Source of the DNA: a plasmid
Assembly: GCF_056746865.1 (NCBI RefSeq)
Contig: NZ_JBWKMP010000005.1
Reading direction: 5' to 3' (one strand)
Length of the DNA: 64,000 nt
Shown: positions 9,001 to 12,000 of the stretch, piece by piece
Layout: the number at the start of each line of letters is the position of its first letter
How positions within the stretch are numbered: the stretch's first letter is position 1
Position numbers: made by a program

Positions 9001-12000
9001 TTTGTTTTCTTCTCTAGGATATGTCAAAAAGGAAATGCAGGGATCAAGAGTGCGATTTTTCAATGCTGAAATTAATCACACAATATTAATGCATCGCCCA
9101 CATCCAGAAAGTTATATTAAAGGTGGAACGCTGAAAGCTATTAAACAGAACTTGAAAGAGGCTGGGGTTTTATGAAACATTTAAAATATAAAGGATATTT
9201 AGGTACGGTTGAGCCGGATTTTGAAAATAATATCCTGTATGGAAAGCTGGCATTTATTCGTGATCTGGTGACTTATGAGGCAGAAACATTGGCTGACCTG
9301 GAACGGGAATTTAAAACATCGGTTGATTTGTATTTACAGTCCTGTGTGGAGGACGGAAAGGAGCCTGACACGCCCTTTAAAGGTGTGTTTAACGTCAGGC
9401 TTGATCCAGAGCTGCATCGTCGGGTCGCTGAAATGGCGATGGAAGAAGATTTGTCGCTGAATGCCTTTGTCAATAAGGCACTGGAAAAAGAAGTCAGTCA
9501 TCATCGCGCAGGGGCTTAATCGCCCCTTTTTGTTGCTCGCAGGCGTTGATGTTTCTTGGTATTACGGTGTAGTGTGTTGTATTTACAAACAATGCTTTAC
9601 GGTGTATTACGATGCATACTCTTTAATTGCTTGCAATCTCTTTTCACGTTCGTTGCTTTGTTCAGCTTTTTTCAATTCACTGAATATGTACTCTTCATCT
9701 TTACCCGTGAGTTTTGAACCGGAGAGCAAGCGATTAACAACTTTACGTCGAATTGCAGGGTAATCTTTGGTTTTATCGAGTATGGACAATATGCGGTCAC
9801 TACTAAGAATCTGGCCTTTCCCTGATTCCACATAATGTAGAAAAAATGCGATTGCGGACACGCCCAAAAGCACTGTAAGGACGGCTACACCATCAAGACG
9901 AAACTTTGATATAAAGGAATACGCGACCACTCCAATAATTGCTAAGCAGAGACATAAATAAATTAAGAGGTTTTTGTTGCGTTGTTTTTTTTGTGCGCGA
10001 TCATGATCATCTATGATTGCCAGTATCTTTTCTGGAGTTGCTTGAGCCATTTTTTTTCCTTATCAGGGAGACGGAGTGTTCAATCATCTGGCTTTACAAT
10101 GTAAAGCTGTGTTTGTCTTTACGGTGTAAATAATGAGATGTGCAGTTAAAAGTGTCAATCAGGTATCATATAGTAAAACACTATATGATTTTTCTGTAAT
10201 AGGCTTAAAAAATTCTCGCTTACATTGTAAAGGTCTTTGTGTCTTTACAGTGCACCACGTTGTAAATCACTGCCTTCTGTGGAGATAATCATGTTTTTTT
10301 CTGTTGGTGTCGAAACACCGAAAGATGATCAGACTGCATACGGCATCACTGTTCCGGCTTTTGATTGTTTTGGTTTTGGATGTGTTTCTGCGGCTGATTC
10401 TCAGGCAGAAATACCCGCTATGGCGCGTGAAGCGATATTGGCAATCGTGGAAGATATGGTATTAAGCGGTGCTTATTCTGTTGATGATATTCATGATGAA
10501 GGGTGTTTGACTTATTCGGATCACTCCAATTATAAGCACTGTGATAGCTGGTTTTTGGTTGATGTCGATTTAACATTAGACATGCCGTAGTCCGGCTATC
10601 GGGTCATGAGGACGCTGAAGAATATCGCAGGCATATATTTACAGTGTAAAGGTGTTTCTGTCTTTACATTGTAAGGCTTATTGAATACTACACTGTAGTG
10701 CAATGTATGTGTTTTTATGACCTATCCCCGCGTTGTGCGGGGATTTTTTTTGATAGCTAACCGCTCGCCGCAGTCTAGCGACCGAGCATAGCGAGCGAGT
10801 GACGAGGAAGCGGAAGATCCACCGTTGCCAGGAGAAAAGCAGGTACGCACTATGCATTCTGCCCTAGTGATGCTTTCACAAACCACGCGGCCTGAACTAT
10901 TACGCCATGAATCCAGCGCAAATCGGCATCACGATTTTCTTTTTTCATTTTTTCGCCACTTAAAGCCTTGCTTACGTGACTTTTTACCAGATTTTCGTGT
11001 AATTCTTTTGCTTCTTCAATTGTGAAACCACCAGGCAAATTTGGCGCTTCTGCTTCCAGTGATGCCAGAGCAATTTCATAAGCCCGGCGCTCAATATTGT
11101 CTCGCACGTCCAGGCTGCCGATTCGCTCCCTGATTTCTTTAATTAGTTTCTTGTCGTCGTCGGTAAATGTTGTCATCTCACTCTCCTTTGGCGTCAATGT
11201 TTACAGCCTGGCAAGCCTCTTTGAGCACCCAGTCAATAGCGTCTTTCCATGCCCCTGTTTCGACGGGAGGATTCGTGTGCTTTACCTGATCGTAGAAGCG
11301 TACTGCGTTTACCAGTCCTCTTGTTGGTGCTGCTATCGCAGGTGGTAAGTTGTAGAGTTCCTGAATTTCATAGTTCGGCCTGTCGTTGCAGTCTTCTTTT
11401 GTCGGCACGTATTTCCAGTCACCAACCCACGTTTTACCCTGAGAGTCCGTAACGTCTTTTTTCACGTAACGATACCTCCATGCAACAACCCCAGCTTCCA
11501 GCGATGCCAGTGCGATTTCATAAGCCCGGCGTTCAATATTGTCTCGCACGTCCAAGCTGCCGATTCGCTCTCTGATTTCTTTAATCAGTCCCTTGTCGTC
11601 GTCGGTAAAAGTTGTCATTAGTGACTCCTTTTCATATCTATGGTTTTCTTGAATCAATTTCGTCTAGTTTGAGTTTTATATTTTGCTGGTCTGATTTTGG
11701 TAATTTTCTCATGCTCTCTTCAGTTATTTTTTTCATATCAAGAAAAGCTCTTGCATAGAAGCGCAGGCTTGCCTCTTTTTCATGTTGTGCAACATACCAG
11801 GTTGCGCCAGAAAATGCCGCAGACAGGCATAATGTGCACAAGGCACAAATTGCAATGGCTGTTCTTGTACTGAAGGGTTTTACAGCCTTAGATAATGACT
11901 TCAACTTTTCTTCATATAATTTGTTGTTTTTTTCCTGGTTGCGTTTAATTCCAGATATGAGTTCAATAATATCATCTGTTAATTTTTCTTTTACCTCAAC

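What the first reader, a model, noticed from the sequence alone, without database searches (positions are those of the whole stretch)
10680..10820. ColE1-ori-like segment that may be a primosome assembly (single-strand initiation) site
Positions 10752-10820 match at roughly 80 percent a sequence I recall from pBR322/pUC vectors (gataccgctcgccgcagccgaacgaccgagcgcagcgagtcagtgagcgaggaagcggaag), which lies beside the pMB1 origin where PriA-dependent primosome assembly sites were mapped. In a conjugative leading region such a site could prime complementary-strand synthesis on the incoming strand. A strong rho-independent terminator (10725-10752) immediately precedes it, and the ~70 bp between the operator palindromes (10634-10677) and that terminator could encode a short RNA.
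Basis: partly seen in the sequence, partly recalled or inferred. Interest (0 to 1): 0.6.

Follow-up and report, generated by a model that had tools for sequence, protein, structure and literature searches.

The report
ColE1-type priming-site module in IncI2 plasmid
A 60-95 base stretch of this IncI2 resistance plasmid is a diverged copy of the folded single-strand DNA signal that ColE1/pBR322-type plasmids use to load the host priming machinery, but it appears to lie on the strand that stays in the donor, so it probably does not prime the incoming strand.

Summary
Window 10760-10817 (+) matches the pMB1/pUC segment 121-180 nt past the RNA/DNA switch at 51/59 (E 7e-15). That is the zone of the lagging-strand primosome assembly site (ssiA, n'-pas). 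The window is an mcr-1-type IncI2 plasmid.

The segment is one member of a portable module: ACCGCTCGCCGCAG, a variable hairpin, then CGAGGAAGCGGAA. It occurs with unrelated flanks in ColE1-like, IncX, Rep_3 and RepFIB-like replicons. A profile built without IncI2 finds one copy in the window (E 2.8e-15).

Family variants show compensatory changes, a GCGNAGC DNA mini-hairpin, and a distal ACGC box about 30 nt downstream (window 10845-10848). G·T-versus-A·C asymmetry, ColE1 geometry and phiX174 motifs all make the AAGCGG strand (window +) the active one.

The transferred strand is inferred to be the minus strand. The evidence is TraL/TraM leader-operon homologues and the relaxase orientation. 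So the proposed role on the incoming strand is disfavoured. The site more likely loads a primosome on the lagging-strand template or the donor's retained strand, or it is a relic.

The terminator is real, but it is the hicAB terminator. The "short RNA" interval is a lineage-specific deletion scar. Verdict: a new member of a known kind, of moderate-to-low interest.

The parts
10760..10815 (+). Core of the ColE1-type single-strand initiation (n'-pas / ssiA-like) module. The 5' arm is ACCGCTCGCCGCAG (10760-10773), the central region is 10774-10802, and the 3' arm is CGAGGAAGCGGAA (10803-10815) containing AAGCGG (10808-10813).
   Evidence: 51/59 identity to pMB1 +121..+180. Single HMM hit, E 2.8e-15. 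Both arms exact. Family covariation.
10786..10792 (+). Position of the family's GCGNAGC DNA mini-hairpin. Here it reads GCATAGC, so the closing pairs G-C and C-G are kept but the loop is ANA instead of GNA.
   Evidence: In alignment A1 the closing pair is GC:19 and AU:7 and is never unpaired, and the loop N takes all four bases. GNA is required for the very stable mini-hairpin (PMC13037366).
10842..10850 (+). Distal conserved box GGTACGCAC, with ACGC at 10845-10848, 31 nt after GCGG. It abuts or overlaps the stop codon of the minus-strand gene that ends at 10850.
   Evidence: ACGC lies at +28 to +31 in 26 of 41 independent flank clusters, against 0 in an upstream control window.
10724..10752 (+). 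Intrinsic terminator of the + strand hicAB unit.
   Evidence: Terminator scan. In L007-L009 it follows the hicB stop codon directly.
10572..10721 (+). Sublineage-specific replacement segment holding an extra operator pair (10637-10651 and 10662-10676). It takes the place of the 3' part of hicB. This is the candidate 'short RNA' interval.
   Evidence: Only 141 records carry it, and only the operator part matches elsewhere. Comparison with L007-L009.
10291..10590 (+). Truncated hicB-like antitoxin gene (99 aa). The cognate hicA is absent in this lineage.
   Evidence: 89.6% identity to the 5' two-thirds of hicB in L007-L009, with hicA missing. RefSeq annotation.
10850..13518 (-). Leader-type operon running from oriT toward the element. 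It comprises a 133-aa ORF, TraL, a TraM-like 243-aa ORF and two small ORFs. It defines the leading side of oriT.
   Evidence: TraL subfamily E 1e-53; TraM E 0.0011, which is weak. Annotation.
13520..13886 (.). Presumed oriT region. It holds an inverted repeat at about 13762-13815, a CCTG|T-like candidate nick motif on the minus strand, and TGTGGG-rich repeats at 13590-13720.
   Evidence: Sequence read and its position between the divergent leader and relaxase operons. The nick was not mapped, so this is an inference.

Best explanation
Window 10760-10815, with a distal box at 10842-10850, is a diverged but intact-looking copy of the ColE1-type, phiX174-like primosome assembly site (n'-pas, ssiA). 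It is a portable module of about 60-95 nt that works as folded single-stranded DNA. The invariant arms CCGCTCG and CGA-GGAA-GCGG pair with each other and enclose a variable stem and a GCGNAGC mini-hairpin. PriA is expected to recognise this fold on SSB-coated DNA and then recruit PriB, DnaT, DnaC-DnaB and primase. The active face is the AAGCGG strand, which is window +. In this IncI2 plasmid that strand is not the transferred strand. It is the lagging-strand template for forks leaving oriV next to repA and moving rightward, and it is also the strand retained in the donor. So if the site is active, it loads a primosome during vegetative replication or restart, or during donor replacement-strand synthesis. 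It would not act on the incoming strand in the recipient. Shown here: the homology, family membership at sequence and structure level, and which strand folds. Inferred: PriA dependence, the identity of the T-strand, the fork direction, and whether this particular copy is active.
For: Homology: 51/59 identity, E 7e-15; HMM without IncI2 gives E 2.8e-15 and a single hit. Portable module: the same block has unrelated flanks in more than 5000 plasmid records, including IncX4 and IncHI1B-typed plasmids, and in 120 genome loci. Structure: 90% of cells are paired against 19-47% for slid controls; 6 pairs show double-sided changes; the covariation score is 0.243 against 0.127, with 0 of 500 shuffles as high. 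Some variants carry entirely foreign perfect hairpins between the same arms. Strand: 5 G·T and 0 A·C pairs, plus 5 G·U at columns 20/44. The GCGNAGC mini-hairpin is specific to DNA and to one strand. CCGCT, GCGAAGC and GAAGCGG are also on the phiX174 viral strand in the F-G spacer. In pMB1 this strand is the one displaced by leading-strand synthesis (PMC3167613). T-strand: TraL/TraM leader-operon homologues and the relaxase orientation, and the synteny of leading genes with IncX4. Fork direction: the + strand has G>C in 13 of 16 bins and T>A in 14 of 16 bins, even though most genes are on the minus strand. Retention: the element is present in 536 plasmid records at 90% identity or more, all of those inspected being IncI2-typed. 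The two IncI2 lineages compared differ at only 2 positions in the block, and both positions fall in the variable stem.
Against: This copy has ANA instead of GNA in the mini-hairpin and only a weak variable stem of about 3 pairs with a mismatch. The predicted ssDNA fold is no more stable than shuffled sequence (z = -1.0). Most family members sit within a few hundred bp of a rep gene or origin, whereas this one is about 9.6 kb from repA, so a vegetative role is not obvious. Within IncI2 the block is no more conserved than its flanks. The T-strand and the fork direction are inferred, not mapped.
Confidence: 0.55

Rival explanations
1. Decaying relic. The block is a remnant of an old recombination with a ColE1-like, IncX-like or similar replicon and has no function in IncI2.
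For: It lies 9.6 kb from repA, whereas most copies are next to origins. It has a G-to-A change in the mini-hairpin loop and a weak variable stem. It is no more conserved than its flanks within IncI2. The neighbourhood is visibly rearranged.
Against: All positions that are invariant in the rest of the family are intact, including both arms and the distal ACGC box at the right distance. Random decay over 14% divergence would be unlikely to spare them. The same G-to-A loop change recurs in three other lineages, which suggests it is tolerated. The module fills the convergent intergenic gap exactly and is present in all IncI2 records retrieved.
Confidence: 0.25
2. The site is exposed on the incoming transferred strand and primes complementary-strand synthesis in the recipient.
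For: The element is in the leading region, about 2.9 kb from the presumed oriT. In IncX4 the homologous module does lie on the inferred T-strand, about 4.5 kb from oriT, so this use is plausible for the family.
Against: In IncI2 the module is inverted relative to IncX4. Its active AAGCGG face is on window +, while the T-strand is inferred to be minus. No second copy exists on either strand of the window.
Confidence: 0.07
3. RNA-level element. It is part of a small RNA, or it is a structured 3' end or terminator for the converging minus-strand leader operon.
For: It sits between convergent transcription units, and the GC-rich stems would also form in RNA. There is a weak GcvB-like Rfam match just upstream, 29.4 bits.
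Against: The GcvB match is below the gathering score and does not cover the element. No Rfam family matches the element itself. The GNA-loop mini-hairpin is a DNA motif. In the other replicons the module has no consistent orientation relative to the neighbouring genes. The upstream interval is a lineage-specific scar, and no + strand promoter was found.
Confidence: 0.05
4. Transfer-related site. The distal box (family consensus GCACTTACGCAC, reverse complement GTGCGTAAGTGC) resembles the MOBQ nick core TAAGTGCG, so the module could be a relaxase or accessory target.
For: An 8-nt resemblance, recalled from the RSF1010 oriT sequence. Several small carriers are mobilizable.
Against: The IncI2 box, GGTACGCAC, lacks that core. 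The arrangement (box 5' of the hairpin on that strand) is the reverse of MOBQ oriTs. ColE1-type copies have their own, different nick about 115 nt away (L005 sequence). The resemblance rests on memory and was not tested.
Confidence: 0.03

Closest known systems
ColE1/pMB1 ssiA (n'-pas, H-strand factor Y / PriA effector site; also called rri)
   Same: The two conserved arms are the same, the GAGCG-rich centre is the same, and AAGCGG is present. Identity is 86% over 59 nt. The polarity relative to conjugative transfer also matches: in ColE1-like L005 the nick-like sequence is on the opposite strand, about 115 nt away.
   Different: The ColE1 site lies 121-180 nt from the origin on the strand displaced by Pol I. 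The IncI2 copy is about 9.6 kb from repA, in a RepA/antisense-RNA type replicon, between hicAB and a transfer leader operon. It has ANA instead of GNA in the mini-hairpin and one base fewer in the 3' half.
phiX174 n' (PriA) recognition site in the F-G intergenic spacer
   Same: It shares CCGCT/AGCGG stem-forming motifs, GAAGCGG, and a GCGAAGC mini-hairpin on the strand that is used as single-stranded template.
   Different: The order of the motifs is permuted, and there is no overall alignable similarity.
ssi-like palindromes of IncX (R6K-type), pHW126-like, Rep_3 and RepFIB-like replicons
   Same: They are the same module with different flanks. ssi-like elements of this kind have been described as dispensable accessory elements of origins (bioRxiv 10.1101/2022.12.05.519187).
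   Different: Those copies are origin-proximal. The IncX4 copy is on the inferred T-strand, which is the opposite polarity to IncI2.
Leading-region ssi / Frpo-type ssDNA promoters of F and ColIb-P9, and G4-type primase sites
   Same: They have the same general purpose, which is de novo priming on single-stranded plasmid DNA, and they can lie in leading regions.
   Different: They have unrelated sequence and fold and depend on RNA polymerase or on primase alone. They lie on the transferred strand, whereas this element does not. This comparison rests on established knowledge and was not tested here.

Membership tests
ColE1-type n'-pas / ssiA module | 5' arm (A)CCGCTCGCCGCAG | tested here: met
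   Exact at 10760-10773. Invariant in 26 unique variants.
ColE1-type n'-pas / ssiA module | 3' arm CGAGGAAGCGGAA, containing the AAGCGG hexamer shared with phiX174 | tested here: met
   Exact at 10803-10815. phiX174 carries GAAGCGG on the viral strand.
ColE1-type n'-pas / ssiA module | Arms able to pair (CCGC/GCGG and TCG/CGA) around a variable stem that is kept by compensatory change | tested here: met
   The outer 7 pairs are present. In the variable stem the window has C-G, G·T and T-A pairs with one A·G mismatch. This is weaker than many members but comparable to pBR322, which has tandem G·A mismatches.
ColE1-type n'-pas / ssiA module | Central GCGNAGC (GNA-loop) DNA mini-hairpin | tested here: not met
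   The window reads GCATAGC, so the closing pairs are kept but the first loop base is A, not G. Twenty-two of 26 variants have G and 4 independent lineages have A. This feature was derived here and is not an established criterion.
ColE1-type n'-pas / ssiA module | Distal (T/G)ACGC box about 28-31 nt after GCGG | tested here: met
   ACGC at 10845-10848, offset 31. Found in 26 of 41 flank clusters against 0 in the control. This feature was also derived here.
ColE1-type n'-pas / ssiA module | Overall profile match when the profile is built without the candidate | tested here: met
   nhmmer 51.7 bits, E 2.8e-15, the only hit in 64 kb on both strands.
ColE1-type n'-pas / ssiA module | Supports rifampicin-resistant, PriA/DnaT-dependent single-strand to duplex conversion in one orientation only | not testable with these tools
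   This needs an M13/f1 delta-ori complementation assay or a PriA ATPase/EMSA assay.
ColE1-type n'-pas / ssiA module | Located on the lagging-strand template close to a vegetative origin | tested here: inconclusive
   The orientation fits the lagging-strand template if forks move away from repA, which the skew supports. However, the distance from repA is about 9.6 kb, unlike the origin-proximal copies.
Leading-region ssi acting on the transferred strand | Active face lies on the T-strand | tested here: not met
   The active face is window +. The T-strand is inferred to be minus. The nick itself was not mapped.
Small regulatory RNA (GcvB or other Rfam family) | Score at or above the Rfam gathering threshold | tested here: not met
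   GcvB scores 29.4 bits against 42, at 10621-10751. Nothing matches over the element.

The most novel reading that the evidence does not exclude
The ColE1-type pas may be a bipartite ssDNA module of about 95 nt: a Y-shaped fold with a GNA mini-hairpin, plus a distal ACGC box. Conjugative plasmids may deploy it in their leading regions in either polarity. On the T-strand, as in IncX4, it would prime recipient complementary-strand synthesis. On the retained strand, as in IncI2 and also ColE1 next to its nick, it would prime donor replacement-strand synthesis. That would mean donor conjugal DNA synthesis in these plasmids starts de novo at a PriA primosome rather than from the 3'-OH at the nick.
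Probability: 0.12. Interest if true: 0.6.

Novelty: new member of a known kind. Interest (0 to 1): 0.33.

Why it matters
IncI2 and IncX4 are the main vehicles of mcr-1. If the site is active, it would be a cis element through which these plasmids use the host PriA restart primosome, and that dependency could affect host range, copy stability or transfer. The family analysis also gives a sharper definition of a module first described in the 1980s: invariant arms, a covarying stem, a GNA mini-hairpin and a distal ACGC box. It also gives a simple strand test, which shows that presence in a leading region does not by itself imply a role on the incoming strand. Otherwise this is an expected type of accessory replication signal.

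Tried and rejected
1. Fold stability. ssDNA MFE z-scores for both strands of the IncI2, pUC and IncX4 copies fall between -1.0 and +0.3, which is uninformative for GC-rich short hairpins.

2. Whole-module MFE, + versus minus strand, over 54 variants. The result was inconclusive (RNA p = 0.08 favouring minus, DNA p = 0.18 favouring plus). I replaced it with direct G·T/A·C counts at covarying pairs.

3. Literature search for exact pBR322 pas coordinates (rriA, pas-BH, factor Y). Nothing usable is in the held library, so the placement rests on PMC3167613 plus the distances measured.

4. Search for any IncI2 ssi/primosome or oriT nick literature. None was found.

5. Search for diverged IncI2-like backbones that keep or lose the element. 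Only close IncI2 relatives were retrieved.

6. Pairing between the distal ACGC box and the GCGT in the module centre. I rejected this because variants show no compensation (inspection).

7. Distal box as a MOBQ-like nick. I kept this only as a low-probability rival.

8. sRNA reading. It is not supported.

9. About seven pattern hits in high-GC genomes or MAGs (L025, L028, L033, L055, L067, L069, L098) were set aside as chance matches inside coding sequence. Many pUC-identical hits in unrelated taxa are probably vector contamination.
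Full report
**Context**

The window is an mcr-1-type IncI2 conjugative plasmid. A 341-nt query around the finding is 100% identical to many IncI2 records of 58-65 kb. One such record gives the gene map:
- repA lies at the start of the record.
- A block of + strand genes (hok, a ProQ/FinO-like gene, a J-domain gene, hicAB) covers 2.6-10.6 kb.
- A minus-strand operon runs from 13518 down to 10850.
- A relaxosome accessory gene and a 1437-aa relaxase lie on the + strand from 13887.

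The finding sits in the 97-bp gap where the + strand unit and the minus-strand operon converge.

**Observation**

- Window 10760-10817 aligns with the pUC/pBR322-derived sequence ACCGCTCGCCGCAG...GGAAGCGGAAGA at 51/59 identity with one gap, E 7e-15. No other part of 700 nt of flank aligns.
- In pMB1 the block lies +121 to +180 downstream of the RNA/DNA switch.
- PMC3167613 states that Pol I extension exposes the n'-pas/ssiA there, and that ssiA is retained in pUC-type constructs while ssiB lies further downstream. About 180 nt of pMB1 DNA remain beyond the switch in such vectors. This places the block in the ssiA zone.
- I could not retrieve the original mapping coordinates. My recollection that the H-strand factor Y site is about pBR322 2350-2415 is marked as memory.
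- The terminator and the operator palindromes are also present as described.

**What the block is**

It is a discrete, portable module.
- The pBR322 60-mer occurs at 90% identity or more in over 5000 plasmid records. About 1083 of these are large conjugative plasmids.
- With the IncI2 version as query, 536 records match at 90% or more, and more than 4400 others match only query positions 16-75, which is window 10760-10819.
- In IncX4 the block lies about 740 bp upstream of the pir-like initiator gene, with flanks unrelated to ColE1.
- An anchored pattern scan of one genome per species returned 120 loci. After removing chance hits in high-GC coding DNA and probable vector contamination, these give about 43 distinct variants. 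Their flanks are completely different, but the arms ACCGCTCGCCGCAG and CGAGGAAGCGGAA are invariant.
- The carriers include ColE1/p15A-type origins, Rep_3 and RepFIB-like replicons, small HTH-protein plasmids and transfer regions of large Rahnella contigs.
- The literature already describes ssi-like palindromes as accessory, non-essential parts of diverse replicons. The kind is therefore known.
- A profile HMM built from 88 family members, with all IncI2 copies excluded, finds exactly one site in the window: 10760-10827 (+), 51.7 bits, E 2.8e-15.

**Structure**

- Between the invariant arms, some variants carry unrelated perfect hairpins: CTTTGAC/GTCAAAG, CCGGACGC/GCGTCTGG and GCTTTCTCG/TGAGAAAGC.
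- On an alignment of 26 unique variants I tested a model with four helices: CCGC/GCGG, TCG/CGA, a 5-bp variable stem, and a 2-bp stem closing a trinucleotide loop.
- In that model, 90.1% of cells are paired, against 19-47% when partners are slid. All five variable-stem pairs show double-sided changes. The covariation score is 0.243 against 0.127 for shuffles, with 0 of 500 shuffles as high.
- The innermost element reads GCGNAGC, with N being any of the four bases. Its closing pair switches between G-C (19 variants) and A-T (7 variants) and is never unpaired. This is the "mini-hairpin DNA" motif. Only GNA loops form it, with Tm of 70-76 °C, and it is noted at single-strand replication initiation sites (PMC13037366).
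- The pBR322-type variable stem has tandem G·A mismatches rather than Watson-Crick pairs.
- A further feature emerged. A box containing ACGC lies 28-31 nt after GCGG in 26 of 41 independent flank clusters, and in 0 of the upstream controls. ColE1-type origins have it too (CCTTACGCATC). The window has it at 10845-10848, at the stop codon of the minus-strand gene. I have no mechanism for this box.

**Which strand works**

Four lines of evidence agree on the AAGCGG strand, which is window +.
1. In pMB1 this is the strand with RNA II sense. It is the strand displaced by leading-strand synthesis and used as lagging-strand template.
2. In a search that treated the two strands symmetrically, the covarying stems contain 5 G·T and 0 A·C pairs. 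Five more G·U cells and no A·C occur at columns 20/44.
3. GCGNAGC forms the mini-hairpin, and its complement does not.
4. The phiX174 viral strand carries CCGCT, GCGAAGC and GAAGCGG in the F-G spacer. By established knowledge (Shlomai and Kornberg 1980) this is where the n' recognition site lies.

**Which strand is transferred**

The nick has not been mapped, and I found no paper that maps it. The inference that the T-strand is window minus rests on the following.
- The relaxase operon points away from the 13520-13886 intergenic region on the + strand. Relaxase genes enter the recipient last in the well-studied MOBP, MOBF and MOBQ systems (general rule, from established knowledge).
- The minus-strand operon next to that region encodes an IncP-type TraL (E 1e-53), followed by a weak TraM match (E 0.0011). 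This is the arrangement of the RP4 leader operon, which enters first.
- The J-domain-to-hicAB block points toward oriT, exactly as its homologue does in IncX4 upstream of taxA-taxC. This is the orientation expected if the T-strand is their template.
- A CCTG|T-like motif follows an inverted repeat on the minus strand. This is only a weak lead.

On this basis the active face of the module is on the strand that stays in the donor.

The polarity is not uniform across the family.
- In IncX4 the AAGCGG strand coincides with the inferred T-strand.
- In ColE1-like L005 the nick-like sequence CTTAACTATGCGG lies on the opposite strand, about 115 nt away. So ColE1 has the same polarity as IncI2.

**Likely function here**

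- The + strand shows G>C in 13 of 16 bins and T>A in 14 of 16 bins, although most genes beyond 21 kb are on the minus strand. This fits unidirectional replication away from repA, with the + strand as lagging-strand template. R1/IncFII-type replicons replicate this way (established knowledge).
- The module is thus oriented as in ColE1, but it is 9.6 kb from the origin.
- It is also correctly placed to prime replacement-strand synthesis on the retained strand in the donor, with primers extended in the direction of unwinding. That role is speculative.
- The case for a relic rests on the distance from the origin, the ANA loop, the weak variable stem, and the lack of extra conservation within IncI2.
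- Against the relic reading, every family-invariant position and the distal box survive at 14% divergence from ColE1.

**The upstream claims**

- In other IncI2 lineages a complete hicA-hicB pair ends with a stop codon immediately before the terminator. The terminator therefore belongs to hicAB.
- In the window's sublineage hicA is missing and hicB is truncated at 10590.
- Positions 10572-10721 are a replacement segment found only in this sublineage. Only its operator pair has homologues elsewhere.
- No + strand promoter-like site was detected there, and the GcvB match is below threshold.
- A short transcript cannot be excluded. If one exists, it would be a by-product of a deletion and not a conserved RNA gene.

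**Verdict**

The finding is a real, diverged member of the ColE1/phiX174-type primosome assembly site family, sitting in an unusual place. The proposed role on the incoming strand is contradicted by the inferred polarity. It is a new member of a known kind, of moderate-to-low interest.

Noticed in passing
window 390-404, 1113-1197, 5857-5896, 8730-8744, 10092-10131, 10218-10253, 10637-10676: There are eleven copies of the palindrome CTTTACAnTGTAAAG, all on the + strand listing, against 0.25 expected by chance. Most occur as pairs with centres 25 bp apart. They lie upstream of leading-region genes and also immediately downstream of repA in the presumed oriV region. This suggests a single repressor or binding-protein regulon that links the leading region and the replicon.
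   Followed up: partly
window 10842-10850, and loci L002-L129 at 28-31 nt after GCGG: A conserved distal box, (G)CAC(T/G)(T/G)ACGC(A/T)C, accompanies the pas-like module in 26 of 41 unrelated flank contexts, including ColE1-type origins. pUC vectors lost it at the HaeII junction. Its reverse complement, GCGTAAGTGC, resembles the MOBQ nick core as I recall it. Its function is unknown.
   Followed up: partly
window 10850-11197 and 11178-11657 (minus strand): Two adjacent ORFs share a nearly identical N-terminal stretch of about 45 aa (MTTFTDDDK.LIKEIRERIGSLDVRDNIERRAYEIALASLEA). The number and length of these ORFs vary between IncI2 lineages. This points to a tandem partial duplication at the end of the leader operon.
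   Followed up: no
window 10193-10721 compared with L007-L009 at 677-1475: This IncI2 sublineage has lost the hicA toxin gene and the 3' third of hicB from a second hicAB locus. It keeps an orphan 99-aa HicB fragment under the operator-controlled promoter.
   Followed up: partly
window about 5900-9520, and L130 (IncX4) 116-3831: The J-domain gene, three small ORFs and a hicAB pair form a block shared between the IncI2 and IncX4 leading regions, with near-identical RefSeq protein families. In both plasmids the block points toward oriT. These are the two main mcr-1 vectors, and they share a leading-region cassette.
   Followed up: partly
window 13590-13720: A dense array of TGTGGG(T/C)-type G/T-rich repeats lies between the end of the leader operon promoter region and the inverted repeat of the presumed oriT. 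It may be an array of binding sites for a relaxosome accessory protein.
   Followed up: no
whole window: The + strand has positive GC skew (+0.03 overall, 13 of 16 bins) and negative AT skew (-0.05, 14 of 16 bins), regardless of gene orientation. This is consistent with unidirectional replication, or with a strand asymmetry imposed by conjugation.
   Followed up: partly
loci L017 (Pantoea stewartii) 6142-6700; L084 and L085 (Rahnella): Copies of the pas-like module lie next to a J-domain gene (L017) and inside conjugative-transfer gene clusters of large contigs (L084, L085). The module may therefore be common in leading or transfer regions beyond IncI2 and IncX.
   Followed up: no
loci L010, L012, L045, L046, L057 and others: Many hits in Streptomyces, Cutibacterium, Microbacterium and similar assemblies are short contigs whose module sequence is identical or nearly identical to pUC/p15A-type vectors. 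These are probably cloning-vector contamination in public genomes.
   Followed up: no
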